Below are positions 22,187-62,571 of a DNA stretch of 64,000 nucleotides, in pieces (position 1 is the first letter of the stretch; each line of letters begins with the position of its first letter). The stretch is taken from contig NW_025963791.1 of NCBI RefSeq assembly GCF_023055435.1, positions 23,002,001 to 23,066,000 of the forward strand. Reading direction: 5' to 3'. This DNA comes from Haliotis rufescens. Taxonomy: Eukaryota. Made by a program: the position numbers and the translations under genes. The notes beneath the pieces were generated by a model that was not told the DNA's origin, made no database searches, and saw only the letters and a program-made list of their open reading frames with translations.

Positions 22187-25100
22187 TTTAGGTTTGAAGG
22201 CCAAGTCCAGCCGTAACAGTGATTGTCTCATGGCGTGTCATGTCACATATGATTTGAAGGCCAAGTCCAGCTGTAACAGTGGTTGTCTCATGGCGTGTCA
22301 TGTCACACTAGGCTTGAAGGCCAAGTCCATCTGTCTCATGGCGTGTCATGTCACGTTTGATTTGAAGGCCAAGTCCAGCTGTAACAGTGATTGTCTCATG
22401 GCGTGTCATGTCACACTAGGTTTGAAGGCCAAGCTCAGCTGTAACAGTGATTGTCTCATGGCCTGTCATGTCACGTTTGATTTGAAGGCCAAGTCCAGCT
22501 GTAACAGTGATTGTCTCATGGCGTGTCATGTCACACTAGGCTTGAAGGCCAAGCCCAGCTGTAACAGTGATTGTGTCATGGCGTGTCATGTCACACTAGG
22601 TTTGAAGGCCTAGTCCAGCTGTAACAGTGATTGTCTCATGGCGTGTCATGTCACACTAGGTTTGAAGGCCAAGTCCAGCTGTAACAGTGATTGTCTCATG
22701 GCGTGTCATGTCACACTAGGTTTGAAGGCCTAGTCCAGCTGTAACAGTGATTGTCTCATGGCGTGTCATGTCACACTAGGTTTGAAGGCCAAGTCCAGCC
22801 GTAACAGTGATTGTCTCAGGGCGTGTCATGTCACATTTGATTTGAAGGCCAAGTCCAGCTGTAACAGTGATTGTCTCATGGCGTGTCATGTCACACAAGG
22901 CTTGAAGGCCAAGCCCAGCTGTAACAGTGATTGTCTCATGGCGTGTCATGTCACACTAGGCTTGAAGGCCAAGTCCAGCTGTAACAGTGGTTGTCTCATG
23001 GCTTGTCATGTCACACTAGGCTTGAAGGCCAAGCCCAGCTGTTACAGTGATTGTCTCATGGCGTGTCATGTCACACTAGGTTTGAAGGCCAAGTCCAGCC
23101 GTAACAGTGATTGTCTCATGGCGTGTCATGTCACGTTTGATTTGAAGGCCAAGTCCAGCTGTAACAGTGATTGTCTCATGGCGTGTCATGTCACGTTAGA
23201 TCTGTAGGCCAAGTCCAGCCGTAACAGTGATTGTCTCATGGCGTGTCATGTCACATTTGATTTGAAGGCCAAGTCCAGCTGTAACAGTGATTGTATCATG
23301 GCGTGTCATGTCACACTAGGCTTGAAGGCCAAGCCCAGCCGTAACAGTGATTGTATCATGGCGTGTCATGTCACGTTTGATTTGAAGGCCAAGTCCAGCT
23401 GTAACAGTGATTGTCTCATGGCGTGTCATGTCACACTAGGCTTGAAGGCCAAGCCCAGCCGTAACAGTGATTGTCTCATGGCGTGTCATGTCACACTAGG
23501 TTTGAAGGCCTAGTCCAGCTGTAACAGTGATTGTCTCATGGCGTGTCATGTCACACTAGGTTTGAAGGCCAAGTCCAGCTGTAACAGTGATTGTCTCATG
23601 GCGTGTCATGTCACACTAGGTTTGAAGGCCAAGTCCAGCTGTAACAGTGATTGTCTCATGGCGTGTCATGTCACACTAGGTTTGAAGGCCTAGTCCAGCT
23701 GTAACAGTGATTGTCTCATGGCGTGTCATGTCACACTAGGTTTGAAGGCCTAGTCCAGCTGTAACAGTGATTGTCTCATGGCGTGTCATGTCACACTAGG
23801 TTTGAAGGCCTAGTCCAGCTGTAACAGTGATTGTCTCATGGCGTGTCATGTCACACTAGGTTTGAAGGCCAAGTCCAGCTGTAACAGTGATTGTCTCATG
23901 GCCTGTCATGTCACGTTTGATTTGAAGGCCAAGTCCAGCTGTAACAGTGATTGTATCATGGCGTGTCATGTCACACAAGGCTTTGAAGGCCAAGCCCAGC
24001 TGTAACAGTGATTGTCTCATGGCGTGTCATGTCACACTAGGCTTGAAGGCCAAGTCCAGCTGTAACAGTGGTTGTATCATGGCGTGTCATGTCACACTAG
24101 GCTTGAAGGCCAAGTCCAGCTGTAACAGTGGTTGTCTCAGGGCGTGTCATGTCACACTAGGTTTGAAGGCCAAGTCCAGCTGTAACAGTGATTGTCTCAG
24201 GGCGTGTCATGTCACACTAGGTTTGAAGGCCAAGTCCAGCTGTAACAGTGATTGTCTCATGGCGTGTGATGTCACGTTTGATTTGAAGGCTGAGTCCAGC
24301 TGTAACAGTGATTGTCTCATGGCGTGTCATGTCACGTTAGATCTGTAGGCCAAGTCCAGCTGTAACAGTGATTGTCTAATGGCGTGTCATGTCACACTAG
24401 GTTTGAAGGCCAAGTCCAGCCGTAACAGTGATTGTCTCATGGCGTGTCATGTCACATTTGATTTGAAGGCCAAGTCCAGCTGTTACAGTGATTGTATCAT
24501 GGCGTGTCATGTCACACTAGGCTTGAAGGCCAAGCCCAGCCGTAACAGTGATTGTATCATGGCGTGTCATGTCACGTTTGATTTGAAGGCCAAGTCCAGC
24601 TGTAACAGTGATTGTCTCATGGCGTGTCATGTCACATATGATTTGAAGGCCAAGTCCAGCTGTAACAGTGATTGTATCATGGTGTGTCATGTCACACTAG
24701 GCTTGATGGCCAAGTCCAGCTGTAACAGTGATTGTATCATGGCGTGTCATGTCACGTTTGATTTGAAGGCCAAGTCCAGCTGTAACAGTGATTGTCTCAT
24801 GGCGTGTCATGTCACACTAGGTTTGAAGGCCAAGCTCAGCTGTAACAGTGATTGTCTCATGGCCTGTCATGTCACGTTTGATTTGAAGGCCAAGTCCAGC
24901 TGTAACAGTGATTGTCTCATGGCGTGTCATGTCACACTAGGTTTGAAGGCCAAGCTCAGCTGTAACAGTGATTGTCTCATGGCCTGTCATGTCACGTTTG
25001 ATTTGAAGGCCAAGTCCAGCTGTAACAGTGATTGTCTCATGGCGTGTCATGTCACACTAGGTTTGAAGGCCTAGTCCAGCTGTAACAGTGATTGTCTCAT

Positions 25101-26828
25101 GGCGTGTCATGTCACACTAGGTTTGAAGGCCAAGTCCAGCTGTAACAGTGATTGTCTCATGGCGTGTCATGTCACACTAGGTTTGAAGGCCAAGTCCAGC
25201 TGTAACAGTGATTGTCTCATGGCGTGTCATGTCACACTAGGTTTGAAGGCCTAGTCCAGCTGTAACAGTGATTTTCTCATGGCGTGTCATGTCACACTAG
25301 GTTTGAAGGCCTAGTCCAGCTGTAACAGTGATTGTCTCATGGCGTGTCATGTCACACTAGGTTTGAAGGCCTAGTCCAGCTGTAACAGTGATTGTCTCAT
25401 GGCGTGTCATGTCACACTAGGTTTGAAGGCCAAGTCCAGCCGTAACAGTGATTGTCTCATGGCGTGTCATGTCACGTTTGATTTGAAGGCCAAGTCCAGC
25501 TGTAACAGTGATTGTATCATGGCGTGTCATGTCACACAAGGCTTTGAAGGCCAAGCCCAGCTGTAACAGTGATTGTCTCATGGCGTGTCATGTCACACTA
25601 GGCTTGAAGGCCAAGTCCAGCTGTAACAGTGATTGTCTCAGGGCGTGTCATGTCACACTAGGTTTGAAGGCCAAGTCCAGCCGTAACAGTGATTGTCTCA
25701 TGGCGTGTCATGTCACATTTGATTTGAAGGCCAAGTCCAGCTGTAACAGTGATTGTATCATGGCGTGTCATGTCACACTAGGCTTGATGGCCAAGTCCAG
25801 CTGTAACAGTGATTGTATCATGGCGTGTCATGTCACGTTTGATTTGAAGGCCAAGTCCAGCTGTAACAGTGATTGTCTCATGGCGTGTCATGTCACACTA
25901 GGTTTGAAGGCCAAGCTCAGCTGTAATAGTGATTGTCTCATGGCGTGTCATGTCACACTAGACTTGAAGGCCAAGCCCAGCTGTAACAGTGATTGTCTCG
26001 GGGCGTGTCATGTCACACTAGGTTTGAAAGCCAAGTCCAGCTGTAACAGTGGTTGTCTCATGGCGTGTCATGTCACACTAGGCTTGAAGGCCAAGTCCAG
26101 CTGTAACAGTGATTGTCTCATGGCGTGTCATGTCACACTAGGCTTGAAGGCCAAGTCCAGCTGTAACAGTGGTTGTCTCATGGCGTGTCATGTCACATTT
26201 GATTTGAAGGCCAAGTCCAGCTGTAACAGTGATTGTATCATGGCGTGTCATGTCACACTAGGCTTGATGGACAAGTCCAGCTGTAACAGTGATTGTCTCA
26301 GGGCGTGTCATGTCACACTAGGTTTGAAAGCCAAGTCCAGCTGTAACAGTGGTTGTCTCATGGCCTGTCATGTCACACTAGGCTTGAAGGCCAAGTCCAG
26401 CTGTAACAGTGGTTGTCTCATGGCGTGTCATGTCATACTAGACTTGAAGGCCAAGCCCAGCTGTAACAGTGATTGTCTCAGGGCGTGTCATGTCACACTA
26501 GGTTTGAAGGCCAAGTCCAGCTGTAACAGTGATTGTCTCAGGGCGTGTCATGTCACACTAGGCTTGAAGGCCAAGTCCAGCTGTAACAGTGATTGTCTCA
26601 TGGCGTGTCATGTCACACTAGGCTTGAAGGCCAAGTCCAGTTGTAACAGGGATTGTCTCAAGGCGTGTCATGTCACACTAGGTTTGAAGGCCAAGTCCAG
26701 TTGTAACAGGGATTGTCTCATGGCGTGTCATGTCACACTAGGCTTGAAGGCCAAGTCCAGCTGTAACAGTGATTGTCTCAGGGCGTGTCATGTCACACTA
26801 GGTTTGAAAGCCAAGTCCAGCTGTAACA
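22187..26828. repeat. 60-bp tandem array, ~77 copies, containing RSAD1 C-terminal codons and stop
   Basis: unit GTAACAGTGATTGTCTCATGGCGTGTCATGTCACACTAGGTTTGAAGGCCAAGTCCAGCT. Confidence 0.98.
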
Positions 26829-32800: not shown

Positions 32801-35800
32801 CGCTTAGCACAGCACCCTGGTTACAGCACAGTACCCTGGTTACAGCACAACACAGTACCCTGGTTACAGCACAGCACAGCACAGCACAGCACCCCGGTTA
32901 CAGCACAGTACCCTGGTTACAGCATAGCACAGTACCCTGGATACAACAGAGTACAGTACCCTGGTTACAGCACAACACAGTACCCTGGTTACAGCACAGT
33001 ACCCTGGTTACAGCATAGCACAGTACCCTGGATACAACAGAGTACAGTACCCTGGTTACAGCACAGGACAGTGAGTGAGTGAGTGAGTTGGGTTTAATGC
33101 CACTTTTAACAGTATTACAGTTATATTGTGGCATGTCAGCTTAATGTGGGAGGAAAGCCTGAAGTGATGCAGGTCTCAGACGTTTACCACTTCGGTGAAA
33201 CCCACAAGCACGGGTATGGTGCTGACAAACCTAGAAATATAATAAGGGCGAACCAGGATTCGAACCCACAATCATATTTTTCTGGCATGCCCAAGGGACT
33301 CTGCACAGGGAATCATTGCACCTTAGACGACTGGGCCACCAGCAGAGGACAGTGTCCAGGGTACGGCACATCACAGTACCCTGGTTACATCACATCACAG
33401 TACCCTGGTTACAGGACAGGGGAGTACCCTGGTCACAGCACAGCACAGTACCCTGGTTACAGCACAGGATAGTACCCTGGTTAGAGGACAGGACAGTACT
33501 CTGTTTATAGCTCAGCATAGTACCCTCGTTACAGCACAGCACAGTACCCTGGTTACAGCACAGCACAGTACCCTGGTTACAGCACAGGACAGTACCCTGG
33601 TTACAGCACAGGACATTTCCCTGTTTATAGCTCAGCATAGTACCCTGGTTACAGCACAGCACAGTACCCTGGTTACAGCACCCTGGTTACAGCACAGTAC
33701 AGTACCCTGGTTACAGCACAGCACAGCACAGTACCCTGGTTACAGCACAGCACACTGGTTACAGCACAGTACAGTACCCTGGTTACAGCACAGCACAGTA
33801 CCCTGGGTGCAGCACGGGACAGTACCCTGGTTACAGCACAGGACAGTACCCTGTTTATAGCTCAGCATAGTACCCTGGTTACAGCACATCACAGTACCCT
33901 GGGTACAGCACAGCACAGTACCCTGGGTACAGCACAGGACAGTACCCTGTTTATAGCTCAGCATAGTACCCTGGTTACAGCACAGTACAGTACCCTGGTT
34001 ACAGCACAGCACAGTACCCTGGGTACAGCACGGGACAGTACCCTGGTTACAGCACAGGACAGTACCCTGTTTATAGCTCAGCACAGTACCCTGGGTACAG
34101 CACAGCACAGTACCCTGGGTACAGCACAGGACAGTACCCTGGGTACAGCACAGCACAGTACCCTGGGTACAGCACAGGACAGTACCCTGTTTATAGCTCA
34201 GCATAGTACCCTGGGTACAGCACAGCACAGTACCCTGGGTACAGCACCCTGGTTACAGCACAGTACAGTACCCTGTTTATAGCTCAGCATAGTACCCTGG
34301 GTACAGCACAGCATAGTACCATGGTTACAGCATGGGACAGTACCCTGGTTACAGCACAGGACAGTGTCCTGGGTACAGCACAGCATAGTACCATGGTTAC
34401 AGCACAGTACAGTCCCCTCGTTACAGGACAGTTCAGTACTATTGTTTTCACATATATCTGCCTACCTGGACCGCAGCCTTGTACATGGTCGCCACATCAT
34501 CGGGGGACGGCATCCGCTAGAAACAGTCACATCAAGACATAGTGCCTGATACAAGTCAGCCTAATTGATATTACATAGAGACATCTTCTTCTTTTATTGA
34601 AGACTTTCTAAAGGAGGACTTATGAATCAACATGGATCTAAAGGAGCTTTTTTCAAAGGTTGCAAAAATATCATTGCAGTGGTCAAGCTCTCATTCCCCT
34701 GTTGTACTGATGTGACCACTGTGTGTTTACCGACATCCTTAAACAGCTATACTGACCACTGTGTGTTTACCAACTTCCTTAAACAGCTATACTGACCACT
34801 GTGTGTTTACCGACATCCTTAAACAGCTATACTGACCACTGTGTGTTTACCAACTTCCTTAAACAGCTATACTGACCACTGTGTGTTTACCGACATCCTT
34901 AAACAGCTATACTGACCACTGTGTGTTTACCAACTTCCTTAAACAGCTATACTGACCACTGTGTTTACCAACTTCCTTAAACAGCTATACTGACCACTGT
35001 GTTTACCAACTTCCTTAAACAGCTATACTGACAGCTGTGTGTTTACCGACATCCTTAAATAGCTATACTGACCACTGTGTGTTTATCGACATCCTTAAAC
35101 AGCTATACTGACCACTGTGTGTTTACCGACATCCTTAAACAGCTATACTGACCACTGTGTGTTTACCAACTTCCTTAAACAGCTATACTGACCACTGTGT
35201 GTTTACCGACATCCTTAAACAGCTATACTGACCACTGTGTGTTTACCGACATCCTTAAACAGCTATACTGACCACTGTGTGTTTACCAACTTCCTTAAAC
35301 AGCTATACTGACCACTGTGTTTACCAACTTCCTTAAACAGCTATACTGACCACTGTGTGTTTACCAACTTCCTTAAACAGCTATACTGACCACTGTGTGT
35401 TTACCAACTTCCTTAAACAGCTATACTGACCACTGTGTGTTTACCAACTTCCTTAAACAGCTATACTGACCACTGTGTGTTTACCGACATCCTTAAACAG
35501 CTTTACTGACCACTGTGTGTTTACCGACATCCTTAAACAGCTATACTGACCACTGTGTGTTTACCAACTTCCTTAAACAGCTATACTGACCACTGTGTGT
35601 TTACCAACTTCCTTAAACAGCTATACTGACCCCTGTGTGTTTACCGACATCCTTAAACAGCTATACTGACCACTGTGTGTTTACCGACATCCTTAAACAG
35701 CTATACTGACCACTGTGTGTTTACCAACTTCCTTAAACAGCTATACTGACCACTGTGTTTACCAACTTCCTTAAACAGCTATACTGACCACTGTGTGTTT

Positions 35801-38800
35801 ACCAACTTCCTTAAACAGCTATACTGACAGCTGTGTGTTTACCGACATCCTTAAACAGCTATACTGACCACTGTGTGTTTACCGACATCCTTAAACAGCT
35901 ATACTGACCACTGTGTGTTTACTGACATCCTTAAACAGCTATACTGACCACTGTGTGTTTACCAACATCCTTAAACAGCTATACTGACCACTGTGTGTTT
36001 ACCGACATCCTTAAACAGCTATACTGACCACTGTGTGTTTACCAACATCCTTAAACAGCTGGGTTCCTCTCTCCAGGGTCAGCTGATAAAGTGACAGGTG
36101 CTTGTCACATATGTCTATCATCTGCATATCGAGAAAACAACAAGTCATCACAAGTTTCTAAAGGATTTCTCTCTGCATCATTTGTCTAGTCCTCCATCTA
36201 TATGTAGATCAAGTTACATTACATAATTCCTAAAAGAGTTTAGCCACTATGAACACATTCTTCATTCATACCAGAAATTATCACTAGTAGGCAGCTACTC
36301 AATAACTCAGTTCAGATGCCACTATTTTAAATCCCTTGCCCATGTATGCCATATTTCATAAATAACAAGGATTTGATATTCTTCAGTTGGGAGGGAATCT
36401 TGAATTTATCCTAAATACATAATTTGTTCCAGGATAATATTGGAAAAAAAATAAAATTCCTTTATGTTACAAAAATAGGTTGGACATGCTGGATGTCCAG
36501 AATAAAATGTCTACTATAACAGGAAAGAATTGTATGAGCTGAAGCAGCAGATGACTAAACACATATTCTGTCTCCCAACAAACCAGTCTGCTATAAACAT
36601 ACCAATCTCATTAAAATCAGATCTTAGTTCTCGCTACAGCTAAACAAAGATCTGAAGACATCTCATTAGGGGTCACATCAGAACGACCTTTCATCCGACC
36701 AATCAGAGCGTCGCTTACCAGATCATGAAAGTGACAGTTGGAATGTGATTTCTCATCATGCAACCTCGAAAACTTTAACATGGGGTATTTCGAAAGATAC
36801 TTACTGGTTTAACGACTGAATCCTTACAATCTTGACCATCTATTAGCCATTCCAGGATATTTTTTTGTTCAGGTTTCAAATTTGTAATCGAGAATTTGTC
36901 AAAATATGCTTCGAAGCGTAGTCGCCAATTTGAAATTAGTGCCGTAAAGCTTGAGAAAGCTGTCTTCTGATAGCTCATTCCATTGGTCGATCAAAGTTCG
37001 CGCAAGGTCGGTCTGACATGACCCGTAATGGGATGTCCTCAGATCTTTGTTTAGCGATAGCGAGAACTAAGATCTGATTTTAATGAGACTGTACACATAC
37101 TTGTCGGAGCTCAGCTAGCCAGGCATGAACAGTCTGTCCTGGAAGACCAAACATCAGATCCACAGACACACGGCCAGGAAACAAGGCCCTACCCTCCCTG
37201 ATACACCTGCAAAATGGATGGGTGAGATGGTGAGATTGGTGGTGAGACGTTAGCGTACCAAGGGTTGTTGTTTGATGTTAAATGCTGCACTCAACACCAT
37301 TCCAGCTGTAGGATGGTGGCCTGTACATAATAGAGTCTGGTGAGTGAGTGAGTTTGGTTTTACGCCGCTTTTAGCAATATTCCTGCAATATCACGGCAGG
37401 GGATACCAGAAATGGGCTTCACACATTGTACCCATGTCAGGATTCGAACCCGGGTCTTCGGCATGACAAGTGAACTCTTTAACAACTTGGCTACCCGACT
37501 GCCCCTAATAGAGTCTGGACCGGGGTTTGAATTTATGACCAACAATCCATGTCACTATTAAGTTGCCTTGTACGCCAAGCCTAGTATTCTAGGGACTTAT
37601 TCTAACTTGAAATCCCCAGGCAGAAACAGAGTGAATATGGTTTCATGCCACTTTAAGCAATGTTCCAGCCTTGTCATGGCAGGAGTACACTAGTAGTGGT
37701 TCACACATTGTATCCGTGGGGAATCAAACCAAGGACTTCAGCATGATGAACAAACAATTTAACCACAAGACTATGCTACCCCCAAGACTACACAGCACAA
37801 TGACAGTATAGAGCAAAACTGTTTATCCTCCCAAATAGAGGTGTCTTCTCCTATTGCCTACAGTGCACTTTGCCTACAGTGTTATCAAGGCACACAATAG
37901 CAAAAATTCATCCCTCTACCCTAATGAACTTATCCAAGCAATACCATTGTCAACAAACAATGAATATTTTTACACGTGTATTAGGCTTGCAGTTTATTTT
38001 ATATATATGAACATAATAAAAAATGGATAATAAATATTTGATACTTCTCACAATGTAAAATCCAAGATTTGATCACCTGATAATCTTATTACACATATAT
38101 ATAGTTTATTATAATCTCCTACTAATTTTGGAGTTTCTCTTATTCTTGTTCAATCTTTTCCATAGCTGGAACTGCTCACTAGCTCCTCATGGGGTTTAGA
38201 TAACAATAGCTTGACTATGAACACAACTATTGTTTCAAAGGATTAATAACTCATGACTACGCACATCTACTGGGTGTTGAGAGGAAATACCAAGCTGCAG
38301 TTTTAACATAAATACCCCACTCAGTCACAGTAAACTGACTCCGAGCCGACAACTCCTTGTTTTAACACCTTAATACCGAGCACCAGGCAGGGTACCAACA
38401 AGTACCATCTTTAAAAGTCGTAAAGTATGATGCGGCCGGGGATTGAACTCTTACCTTCCAGACACTCTAACACTATGCCACGGGGGCGGTCTCTCCATAA
38501 ATGAACAGAAATGTTGTCAAATTATAGTGTCCACACTATTTCACTCTTTGTTTTCATTATGACACAAGCACCAAAATTTTGAATGCCGACAGACTGTTCT
38601 GATAGGTGTAGAGTGCTTCACATAAATCAAATGTTGACAGGCCGAATGCGTGCACTCATTCGTCGTCACTCACCCCTTTCCGTAACCTGTAAGATGACTC
38701 GTCCCCCTATCGATGAGTGTCATGTGCGAAAATATGACAAACCAATCAGAATGCGCGTATGATTTCAAGTTGTTCATCAAAGAATCACTCAGAAATAATT

Positions 38801-51558: not shown

Positions 51559-53135
51559 AATATACATATGTGAGACAAAGATAAAGTTTCTTTTAAAATT
51601 TGTTTTAATTTTTCCAGCTATTACTCATCCTCATGTAACTTTCTCAATTCAAAAACAAATAAAGCACAACGCATGTCCACCTCCGACAATCCAATATATT
51701 GTATCTTCATTCTGTAACATAATATATAATTGAGAAATAATACACCTATTCTACCCCGGGTCTTCACGGGTCTATTTCAATATGTGATATTGATAGACAT
51801 GTTAGTGTGTGTACCCGTCCGTGGAAAGCAATACATTTTCTTTACAGTCATGATGTGCAGGTGTATTGTTACCAGTAAATGATACCGTCATAAACATGGG
51901 AATTGAACTCATAACTGACTCACGAACGGCGACAACTGCAGCTGTGCAACGATTCCCATTCTGCAAAGGTACGTAACATGATGCGCCTTCAGAACACTGG
52001 GACATCTATGTCCCAAATACCCTGTGAAGCGGCGCGAACAGCCGACCCATAAAGCCCTACTAAAATGTTCATTGTATCACAACAAAAATAATAATCAAAA
52101 TATCAACAGTGATCAGTGTACAAGAAGAGCACATTACGGTTGCTATATGACTTCCTACTTAACGGGCAACTATAGTGTTCGTGTATGTATGTATGTATGT
52201 ATGTATGTATAAAGAGAGAGATATATATATTTACGTTAAGCTAACAAGGAAGAAAATTACAGATTGTGGGTATCACGTGACTTTGAACAACACCAGTGGG
52301 TGTGGGAGACGAATGTCTAAAGCAGAATAGGAGCACAGCTACACAGTTTCAGAGTTCACTCACGTCTGTGGACAAGCTGCCAATTTCAGGAACCTGTGTA
52401 AACCAAACAGGTGTGGAATCGGAGTGTTTCACTTGAAGGTAGGTTAGATTTTATTAGTCGAAAAGTTTGAACAACAAACCAGGAAGGTAAATACGAAGAT
52501 AAAACTCATTAAATGTATAGGAAAATGTACAACTTTATGAATATTAATTTTTTGTTTATTGAATTTAGCGACGTTTCGATGAAGATTCTTACACCGTTAT
52601 CCTATCGCTATGCAAAAAAACCCAGAAGTTTACTTTCCAGCAAGCTGTAGATTTTCTTATTCACTCACCAACTTCTAGAATGCCCACTAAACAGCCTTAA
52701 ATATTAATGATAGCCATCAGTGTTTATTCACAATTTTATAAACAGTATATATTTATACTACATGCATATTACGCGCATTGCGGTGAGGGTTATCCGAGCG
52801 TGTGCTGTGCATCATACACTCGACACAGCCATTACGCCGCGCTCACTAGATCGTGGACAACTCGGTGATATTTTGTTGCCGTAAGCCATAGGGGCAACGA
52901 CTTTTAAGACAAAATTCATGAAATTCCGTCGTTAATATCATATGAGGACGAGTTAAAACAGAAATATGCAACCGTAGAGCCCCGAAATTGTTTCCTTATT
53001 TGTTCTGCGACGTTGTAGGTAGGTGGCGTACAGATATGATTCACAAGCTCAGTTGATAGGCTTAATGCGCATGTATATGAGTGGTAAGCAAACATCGTTT
53101 AAAAAAAGTCCCAATTCAGTTCACATACCAGCATA

Positions 53136-60369: not shown

Positions 60370-60500
60370 CAAGATGTAATGTAACGTCACAGTTTCAGAC
60401 TTTGAGGCTGTTATACGAGGCCAGTATAGTGACCCTCTCCAATAACTACACTCAACCACTTTATCTGTTATGTTTCAGCATCGTCGTTGGCAACGCCATC

Positions 60501-62571
60501 ATGGGCTTATACACAGCATTCCGCAAGAATGGCGCCCCAACATTCTACGAGGCCAACAAGACGCCATTCGAGGCTGACCTCTTGGAGTCCGGTCTCATCT
60601 TTTGCATCGTCATTCTTGCCTTCTCCTTCTATGTCGTACTGCCGGGAATCCGGGGCAAAGAGGTAGGCTGTCTGTTGTACTGTCTGTTGTACTGTCTGTC
60701 ACAAGGAAGTAGGATGTCTGTTGTACTGTCTGTGACAAGGAGGTAGGCTGCCTGTTGTACTGTCTGTGACAAGGAGGTAGACTGTCTGTTGTACTGTCTG
60801 TGACAAGGAGGTAGGCTGCCTGTTGTACTGTCTTTGACAAGGAGGCAGGCTGTCTGTTGTACTGTCTGTGACAAGGAGGTAGACTGTCTGTGGTACTGTC
60901 TGTGACAAGGAGGGAGGCTGTCTGTTGTACTGTCTGTGACAAGGAAGTAGACTGTCTGTTGTACTGTCTGTGACAAGGAGGTAGGCTGTCTGTTGTACTG
61001 TCTGTGACAAGGAGGGAGGCTGTCTGTTGTACTGTCTGTGACAAGGAAGTAGACTGTCTGTTGTACTGTCTGTGACAAGGAGGTAGACTGTCTGTTGTAC
61101 TGTCTGTGACAAGGAGGGAGGCTGTTTGTTGTACTGTCTGTGACAAGGAGGGAGGCTGTTTGTTGTACTGTCTGTGACAAGGAGGCAGGCTGTCTGTGGT
61201 ACTGTCTGTGACAAGGAGGGAGGCTGTCTGTTGTACTGCCTGTGACAAGGAGGCAGGCTGTCTGTTGTACTGTCTGTGACAAGGAGGGAGGCTGTCTGTT
61301 GTACTGTCTGTGACAAGGAGGTAGGCTGTCTGTTGTACTGTCTGTGACAAGGGGGCAGGCTGTCTGTTGTACTGTCTGTGACAAGGAGGTAGGCTGTCTG
61401 TTGTACTGTCTGTGACAAGGAGGTAGGCTGTCTGTTGTACTGTCTGTGATAAGGAGGTAAGCTGTCTGTTGTACTGTCTGTGACAAGGAGGGAGGCTGTT
61501 TGTTGTACTGTCTGTGACAAGGAGGTAGGCTGTTTGTTGTACTGTCTGTGACAAGGAGGTAGGCTGTCTGTTGTACTGTCTGTGACAAGGAGGGAGGCTG
61601 TTTGTTGTACTGTCTGTGACAAGGGGGTAAGCTGTCTGTTGTACTGTCTGTGATAAGGAGGGAGGCTGTTTGGTGTACTGTCTGTGACAAGGAGGGAGGC
61701 TGTCTGTTGTACTGTCTGTGACAAGGAGGTAGGCTGTCTGTTGTACTGTCTGTGACAAGGAGGGAGGCTGTCTGTTGTACTGTCTGTGACAAGGAGGTAG
61801 ACTGTCTGTTGTACTGGTTGTGACAAGGAGGGAGGCTGTTTGTTGTACTGTCTGTGACAAGGAGGGAGGCTGTTTGTTGTACTGTCTGTGACAAGGAGGT
61901 AGGCTGTCTGTTGTACTGTCTGTGACAAGGAGGGAGGCTGTCTGTTGTACTGTCTGTGATAAGGAGGGAGGCTGTTTGTTGTACTGTGACAGGGGGCGGT
62001 CGGGTAGCCTAGTGGTTAAAGCGTTCGCTCGTCACGCCGAACACCCGGGTTCGATTCCCGACATGGGTACAATGTGTGAAACCCATTTCTGGTGTCCCCC
62101 GTCGTGATATTGCTGGAATATTGCTAAAAGCGGCGTAAAACCATACTCACTCACTCACTCACTCATTGTACTGTGACAAGGAGGCTGTTGGTGACACTTG
62201 TTTAATTACTCCCCTTGTGAAATACCTCACTTCAGATGGTTTGGTGGGGTAGCGTAGAGCTTATCCTTGTACCTTCTTGTATATTTAACTGAAAAAAAAA
62301 CTGTAGTGAGTGAATTATGATCCTTGGTCTCAGTAATATTGTCTTCTCCTCTACCTTTCACATGGATGTGAAGCCCATTCCTGGTGTTCTCGCCCCGATG
62401 CGTAAAGCGGCGTAAAACCATACCCACTCACTACAGAAAGTTAAAACATATGTTTATTTCCCATATTCCTCAACGACATCAAAATGGTTCTCTTAAAATA
62501 TTTTTCTTTTCAGAAACTCTTCACATTTACCCGAATTACAGTCAGCTTATTTATCGGTGCTTCCATATTGT
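60501..62571 (+). CDS. DUOXA1: Dual oxidase maturation factor (DUOXA/NIP/moladietz family), 5' part only: exons 60501-60662 and 62514-62571; gene continues beyond window
   Basis: MGLYTAFRKNGAPTFYEANKTPFEADLLESGLIFCIVILAFSFYVVLPGIRGKE + KLFTFTRITVSLFIGASIL resembles recalled DUOXA N-terminus (LPGIRG, SLFIGA); acceptors at 60478 and 62513, donors GTAGG and GTAAGT. The paralogue number cannot be determined. Confidence 0.88.
60656..61991. repeat. 34-bp minisatellite, ~39 copies, built from the DUOXA exon donor
   Basis: GTAGGCTGTCTGTTGTACTGTCTGTGACAAGGAG. Confidence 0.97.
61992..62165 (+). mobile_element. tRNA(Asp)-like SINE family A, intact copy
   Basis: A box TAGCCTAGTGG, GTC anticodon-like loop, B box GGTTCGATTCC, (ACTC)n tail; 13-bp TSD TTGTACTGTGACA. 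Confidence 0.9.

What the first reader, a model, noticed from the sequence alone, without database searches (positions are those of the whole stretch)
60656..61991. Second independent donor-seeded array: DUOXA exon 5' splice site amplified ~39 times with live and dead variants
Seen: the exon ends CAAAGAG|GTAGGCTGTCTGTTGTACTG and the 34-bp unit is CAAGGAG|GTAGGCTGTCTGTTGTACTGTCTGTGA. Units vary precisely at the donor: GTAGG, GTAGA, GTAAG, GCAGG and GGAGG (dead). Reading through the true donor hits TAG at 60744-60746, so later donors give frameshifts or premature stops. Inference: variation concentrated at +2 may reflect selection to inactivate competing donors. It is the same architecture as in RSAD1 but with an unrelated sequence.
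Basis: partly seen in the sequence, partly recalled or inferred. Interest (0 to 1): 0.7.

Follow-up and report, generated by a model that had tools for sequence, protein, structure and literature searches.

The report
Splice-donor minisatellite in abalone DUOXA intron
The splice signal at the end of one exon of an abalone DUOXA gene is repeated 38 times into the next intron, yet the assembled transcripts examined use only the first, true signal, so this is likely a tolerated repeat of a kind known from human and lancelet genes; such repeats sit at about 1 in 20 predicted splice donors in two sampled abalone gene families, about three times the chance rate.

Summary
The array is real: 38 in-register 34-bp units (60702-61991) follow the donor of a DUOXA1-like exon (60479-60662). 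Contigs of 5 RNA-like runs (3 studies) show only the true donor joined to the next exon (62514). Every extra donor would give a stop at codon 82-101 of 432. The selection idea is not supported. The 19 non-GT units at +2 are two alleles spread by duplication; GG is linked to a +10 change (p=0.0009) and lies far from the exon. +1 never varies, and unit 2 has a donor identical to the true one. Across 34 donor-spanning arrays +1/+2 vary no more than other positions (p=0.94) and 554 of 664 copies keep GT. The architecture is known: human F7, CBS and 6-16 VNTRs, lancelet 'mirages'; this scan has noted it at other loci of this genome. One addition: in 1.23 Mb of two transporter families, 33 of 644 predicted donors (31 independent) carry such an array, against 8.6-11 expected. 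Acceptors show a weaker excess. So the locus is ordinary, but the donor-side excess is worth a genome-wide test.

The parts
52415..52438 (+). 3' end of the upstream (non-coding) exon; donor GT at 52439 (start of exon not mapped)
   Evidence: loose end of RNA contigs at 60477 found at 52415
60479..60662 (+). first coding exon of DUOXA1-like gene (ATG 60501, 54 codons, ends ...GIRGKE)
   Evidence: Pfam DuoxA E=2e-5; 100% to P0001, labelled H. rufescens DUOXA1-like by NCBI; RNA contigs 60477-60662 with 0 differences
60660..60668 (+). true splice donor GAG|GTAGGC
   Evidence: joined to 62514 in contigs of 5 of 5 RNA-like runs laid; PWM 9.1 bits, 65th percentile of predicted abalone donors
60656..60701 (+). 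junction unit: 7 exon bases plus intron start with a 12-nt internal duplication
   Evidence: sequence; TRF period-12 row 60668-60699
60702..61991 (+). 38 units of a 34-bp minisatellite, each with a donor-position copy: 19 GT, 15 GG, 4 GC; last unit 4 nt short
   Evidence: 21-mer of the unit occurs 28 times in the genome, all in this array
60744..60746 (+). in-frame TAG (the GTAG of unit 2)
61992..62165 (+). short interspersed element with (CTCA)n tail inserted into the array's 3' end; 13-bp direct repeat TTGTACTGTGACA at 61979-61991 and 62166-62178
   Evidence: sequence; 7 further near-full copies in 94 kb and 198 hits in the 1.23-Mb sample; 'tRNA-derived SINE' is my recalled label, not tested
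62177..62189 (+). remnant CAAGGAGGCTGTT: likely the original downstream look-alike of the exon end that seeded the duplication
   Evidence: sequence; role inferred
62514..62571 (+). next exon (KLFTFTRITVSLFIGASIL), strong acceptor
   Evidence: contigs in 4 of 4 runs; acceptor 12.3 bits, 96th percentile; junction reproduces P0001

Best explanation
This is a locally born minisatellite whose first unit spans the donor of a DUOXA1-like exon; the spliceosome likely takes the first donor it meets, so the 38 later copies are likely silent passengers whose variants spread by duplication rather than by selection. Shown: the array, its local uniqueness, the true junction in RNA contigs, the stops behind every later donor. 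Inferred: birth by misalignment between the exon end (CAAAGAGG..CTGT) and a look-alike about 30 bases into the intron (CAAGGAGG-CTGTT), which explains why units carry CAAGGAG; growth by slippage or unequal exchange; the GG+10T unit type resembling the 3' flank and spreading from the distal side; later SINE insertion; first-donor preference as in human F7, with nonsense-mediated decay removing any leak.
For: True donor joined to 62514 in one contig per run in 4 of 4 runs and 2 of 2 RNA-like runs from the donor side, one of them also; no RNA contig covers 60666-60678. Unit unique to this locus. GG and +10T linked, 8/7/1/22, p=0.0009; GG distal, mean index 24.3 against 16.8 for GT units, p=0.034 for GG against all other units. 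10 units keep the exact true 9-mer and one scores higher. 34 arrays: heterozygosity at +1/+2 0.097 vs 0.086 elsewhere, p=0.94; 554 of 664 copies keep GT. Precedent: PMC1557585, PMC3087553, PMC3902484.
Against: RNA evidence is assembled contigs, which drop rare forms; run type is a guess; 9 loose-end rows were not shown; decay of stop-carrying forms would hide leaky use. In this array +2 is the most variable site, with two separate GT-breaking alleles, and the nearest copy (unit 1, GAA|GTAGGA, 4.9 bits, 9th percentile) is weakened. First-donor scanning was shown in mammalian cells, not molluscs. The donor-side excess of arrays is not explained by plain neutrality with uniform seeding.
Confidence: 0.8

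Rival explanations
1. Selection inactivates competing donors: +2 changes are favoured because live copies steal splicing and give truncated DUOXA.
For: 19 of 38 units lack GT through two separate alleles at +2; 7 of 16 alleles in the 9-nt donor window (p=0.10); unit 1 is weakened. [quoted passage not shown]
Against: +1 invariant; units 1-4 all GT, unit 2 identical to the true donor; dead units distal; no general trend over 34 arrays: most variable site at +1/+2 in 4.5 arrays vs 2.9 expected, this array included.
Confidence: 0.1
2. The array is a dosage dial: low-level use of later donors sends transcripts to nonsense-mediated decay, so copy number or live-donor number tunes DUOXA level, as proposed for the human CBS VNTR.
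For: All 38 pseudo-donors give early stops; 19 keep GT; human 6-16 and CBS use the two nearest pseudo-sites (PMC1557585 Introduction).
Against: No contig with a pseudo-donor junction or exon-to-array read-through in 5 runs; the architecture is common in unrelated genes, which argues against a gene-specific role.
Confidence: 0.08
3. Assembly artefact or a dispersed repeat that landed at the exon end.
For: A weak 72% look-alike array lies 22 Mb away on the same contig.
Against: Units differ in an ordered way; the 21-mer is confined to this locus; DNA-like runs of another organism label carry the exon into the first 25 intron bases and short contigs of the unit, with the +2 T>C variant; the distant array has a different 31-bp unit.
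Confidence: 0.02

Closest known systems
Human F7 intron 7 37-bp VNTR (PMC1557585; read: abstract, Introduction passages, whole Discussion)
   Same: First unit spans the exon-intron boundary (4 exon bases there, 7 here); donor reiterated in the intron; only the most upstream donor used.
   Different: 5-9 identical copies there; 38 here, half with GT broken; use of the first donor here is seen only in contigs, no mutational test.
Human 6-16 (25 pseudo-sites), CBS intron 13 (15-20 units), lamin B2 (100 bp x 10-15), PDGF intron 4 (81 bp x 16-18) as summarised in the Introduction of PMC1557585 (original papers not seen)
   Same: Donor-reiterating minisatellites of similar size.
   Different: 6-16 and CBS also use the two nearest pseudo-sites; no such use seen here.
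Lancelet 'mirage' repeats (Adh3, globins BflGb6/9, troponin C, PGBD5; PMC3087553 and PMC3902484, passages read)
   Same: Invertebrate tandem repeats across exon-intron boundaries at either end; many but not all units keep splice signals; normal splicing; concerted evolution with deviant boundary units.
   Different: Reported gene by gene; the passages read give no frequency or chance expectation. Length instability shown there, not tested here.
Internal tandem repeats at exon-intron boundaries in human segmental duplications (PMC2812944, passages read)
   Same: Repeats at boundaries can affect gene structure.
   Different: There they create new introns or alternative forms; here exon ends match mollusc orthologues and no new form is seen.

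Membership tests
Junction-spanning minisatellite (F7-type VNTR / 'mirage') | First unit spans a real exon-intron boundary | tested here: met
Junction-spanning minisatellite (F7-type VNTR / 'mirage') | Splice site reiterated in the intronic units | tested here: met
   19 of 38 keep GT, 10 carry the exact true 9-mer
Junction-spanning minisatellite (F7-type VNTR / 'mirage') | Regular splicing at the authentic site | tested here: met
   5 of 5 RNA-like runs, contig level only
Junction-spanning minisatellite (F7-type VNTR / 'mirage') | Concerted evolution, boundary units deviant | tested here: met
   linked variant types; junction unit, unit 1 and unit 38 deviate
Junction-spanning minisatellite (F7-type VNTR / 'mirage') | Copy-number polymorphism between alleles | not testable with these tools
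   contigs break at the array; no long reads offered
Array under selection for dead donors | Excess of independent changes at +1/+2 | tested here: not met
   2 of 16 alleles, p=0.24; 34 arrays p=0.94
Array under selection for dead donors | Exon-proximal copies inactivated first | tested here: not met
   units 1-4 GT; GG distal; 29 of 34 first copies GT vs 29.3 expected
Alternative-donor / NMD dosage VNTR (CBS, 6-16 type) | Detectable use of pseudo-donors | tested here: inconclusive
   none in contigs of 5 runs, but contigs drop rare forms

The most novel reading that the evidence does not exclude
In abalone, splice donors are hotspots for the birth or survival of minisatellites: about 5% of donors are amplified in tandem, three- to four-fold above chance, with GT left intact. 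That would point to a link between splicing or exon ends and tandem duplication, and give thousands of natural ladders of identical donors for testing first-come 5' splice-site choice in an invertebrate.
Probability: 0.45. Interest if true: 0.6.

Novelty: new member of a known kind. Interest (0 to 1): 0.3.

Why it matters
The locus alone matters little: it is one more F7-type or mirage repeat. The sample result matters more. If donor-spanning arrays are as common genome-wide as in the two families sampled, abalone offers many natural tests of how one donor is chosen among dozens of equals, and the excess needs a mutational or survival explanation. My searches listed no paper that gives such a frequency; the library lacks most subscription journals and I read no supplements. 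In practice these arrays can mislead gene predictors and profile searches.

Tried and rejected
No listed holder was on record as RNA; runs were treated as RNA-like because their contigs join exons. Depth was not used as expression or copy number. Kinase, myosin (28), aldehyde dehydrogenase (36) and SSF (40) family searches and the 30 ABC search loci (41) were fetched but not used in the counts: kinase hits were mostly single-exon, myosin mostly one paralogue cluster, the others had no local profile or were covered by larger tiles. Internal acceptors or a 3-nt microexon within the unit: AG scores -1.8 to -8.6, below all predicted acceptors; rejected. Frames printed for units 1-2 had a one-base error at exon 4 and are replaced; the DUOXA last-intron row was off by one and is replaced. 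Divergence from the true donor copy was lower at +1/+2 than elsewhere (0.075 vs 0.105, p=0.009) but equal against near positions (0.075 vs 0.075), so I claim no conservation of GT. A homologue search for the RSAD1 exon failed on a frame error and was not repeated. Turri 1995 (PMC306954) is not held. Higher GC as the cause of the excess: spanning and other arrays have equal GC (0.445 vs 0.449).

Full report
Observation. The window holds about ten long tandem arrays. The one in question has period 34. In register from 60702 there are 38 units; the true junction unit in front (60656-60701) is 46 nt because of a 12-nt duplication. At +2, 19 units have T, 15 G and 4 C; +5 has 6 A, +4 has 2 A, -1 has 3 A, +10 has 9 T; +1 and +3 never vary. 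A 21-mer of the unit occurs 28 times in the 1.33-Gb genome, all within this array; a BLAST-type search found only a 72% look-alike elsewhere with a different unit. A short interspersed element with a 13-bp direct repeat cuts the last unit; behind it stands CAAGGAGGCTGTT, which resembles the exon end CAAAGAGGTAGGCTGT.

The gene. The exon translation hits Pfam DuoxA and is 100% identical to P0001, which NCBI labels Haliotis rufescens dual oxidase maturation factor 1-like, so the animal is likely an abalone. P0001 maps exon by exon on the window and the next 13 kb. Joining 60662 to 62514 reproduces P0001; each of the 38 later donor positions gives a stop at codon 82-101 of 432.

Splicing. Laid on the acceptor side, 4 of 4 RNA-like runs (3 studies) have one contig over 62512-62571 whose upstream loose end is the true exon end; 9 loose-end rows were not displayed. 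From the donor side, 2 of 2 RNA-like runs (one shared) leave at 60662 into the next exon, and none covers 60666-60678; short low-depth contigs of the unit itself exist in both. Two DNA-like runs of another organism label continue 25 bases into the intron and hold unit contigs with the +2 T>C variant, so the array is likely older than this assembly's lineage. Contigs drop rare forms, so leaky use is not excluded.

Is +2 under selection? Units in an array are not independent. Counting alleles in units 1-37, 2 of 16 lie at +1/+2 (p=0.24) and 7 of 16 in -3..+6 (p=0.10). GG is linked with +10T (8/7/1/22, p=0.0009), a pairing that resembles the 3' flank, and GG units lie distally (mean index 24.3; GT units 16.8; p=0.034 against all other units). 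Units 1-4 keep GT and unit 2 equals the true donor; in the human cases the nearest pseudo-sites are the ones used (PMC1557585). For a wider test I took 34 donor-spanning arrays (31 from the sample below, plus this one, the RSAD1 one and a third in the last DUOXA intron). 554 of 664 copies keep GT; the first copy keeps it in 29 of 34 (29.3 expected); heterozygosity at +1/+2 is 0.097 against 0.086 (p=0.94), and +1/+2 is the most variable site in 4.5 arrays against 2.9 expected. Selection for dead donors is not supported.

Are such arrays enriched at donors? Exons were located with local profiles; their ends were set with donor and acceptor matrices seeded from recalled consensus and trained on the SNF hits, so boundaries are predictions. 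After dropping 24 of 712 hits that lay mostly inside arrays, and weak or edge sites, 644 donors, 642 acceptors and 242 arrays remained. 34 arrays spanned and reiterated a donor, 22 an acceptor. By eye I dropped 1 donor row as a false exon and 2 as shared between paralogues (33 raw, 31 independent), and 3 acceptor rows as mis-calls (19 raw, about 13 independent). With arrays collapsed to one unit and seeds placed at random outside exons, 8.6 donor-spanning arrays are expected, 11.1 after masking the 23% of sequence shared between the two families; none of 200,000 draws reached 31; each family is enriched alone (SNF 11 vs 3.5-4.2, ABC 20 vs 5.1-6.8). Acceptors: 19 vs 8.7-11.3 (p=0.001-0.017), 13 not significant (p=0.10-0.34). 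By distance, without paralogue merging, array starts are 30 vs 6.4 expected at -50..-4 of the donor, 12 vs 5.4 and 10 vs 4.7 in the next 50 intron bases, and below expectation beyond 100; acceptors 17 vs 6.5, 11 vs 5.6, 9 vs 4.8. So there is a peak across the donor on top of a general rise near exons. Limits: 0.09% of the genome, two expanded families chosen by me, incomplete transposon masking. Causes not tested: protection from deletion by the exon, later transposon dilution of mid-intron sequence, or a true mutational hotspot.

How it works. Inferred: misalignment between the exon end and its downstream look-alike duplicated about 34 bases including the donor; slippage or unequal exchange grew and mixed the units; a SINE later landed at the 3' end. 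The first donor wins, as shown for F7 in mammalian cells (PMC1557585 Discussion), so later copies are nearly free to drift; any leak would carry an early stop and likely be degraded (established NMD knowledge).

Comparison and novelty. The architecture is described for human F7, 6-16, CBS, lamin B2 and PDGF (PMC1557585) and as 'mirages' in lancelets (PMC3087553, PMC3902484; I reached these two papers through earlier scan notes). PMC2812944 and PMC10078293 (passages) treat repeats and splicing in humans; the passages give no chance expectation for boundary-spanning arrays. The scan has at least 8 similar notes in this genome (unchecked). Verdict: new member of a known kind, interest 0.3, most of it from the donor-side excess.

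Noticed in passing
L020, G000:C13:23078329-23079003 (12 kb past the window): The last intron of the same DUOXA gene starts with another donor-spanning array (26-bp unit across CAG|GTGAGT, 7 of 8 copies keep GT) that grades into a 43-bp array sharing part of the unit.
   Followed up: partly
window 34713-36060, minus strand: 40-bp array with 16 exon bases and donor TTG|GTAAAC; 32 of 33 copies keep GT; units end in TAG before the exon part, so each looks like a 16-nt mini-exon. Gene name RSAD1 not tested.
   Followed up: partly
window 61992-62165; also 20524, 37350, 10263, 31954, 60229: A high-copy short interspersed element with (CTCA)n tail; this copy has a clean 13-bp target-site-like repeat inside the array end.
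   Followed up: partly
G000:C346:3048001-3068000 (L154, L155); G000:C268:1404001-1444000; G000:C90:2120001-2150000: Single genes carry four to six junction-spanning arrays each, so the trait may cluster by gene or region.
   Followed up: no
ABCC genes at profile positions 763, 819, 659 and 1272-1278: Junction-spanning arrays shared between paralogues, so some are older than the gene duplications.
   Followed up: partly
P0002 (H. rubra DUOXA1-like): Has V instead of K/R as first residue after this junction (GKEVLFTF vs GKEKLFTF); V is what the first intron codon GTA would give; could be a substitution or a prediction slip.
   Followed up: no
window 22189-26828: 4.6-kb array of a 60-bp unit with long open Cys/His-rich frames on the + strand; no exon link seen; likely non-coding.
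   Followed up: no
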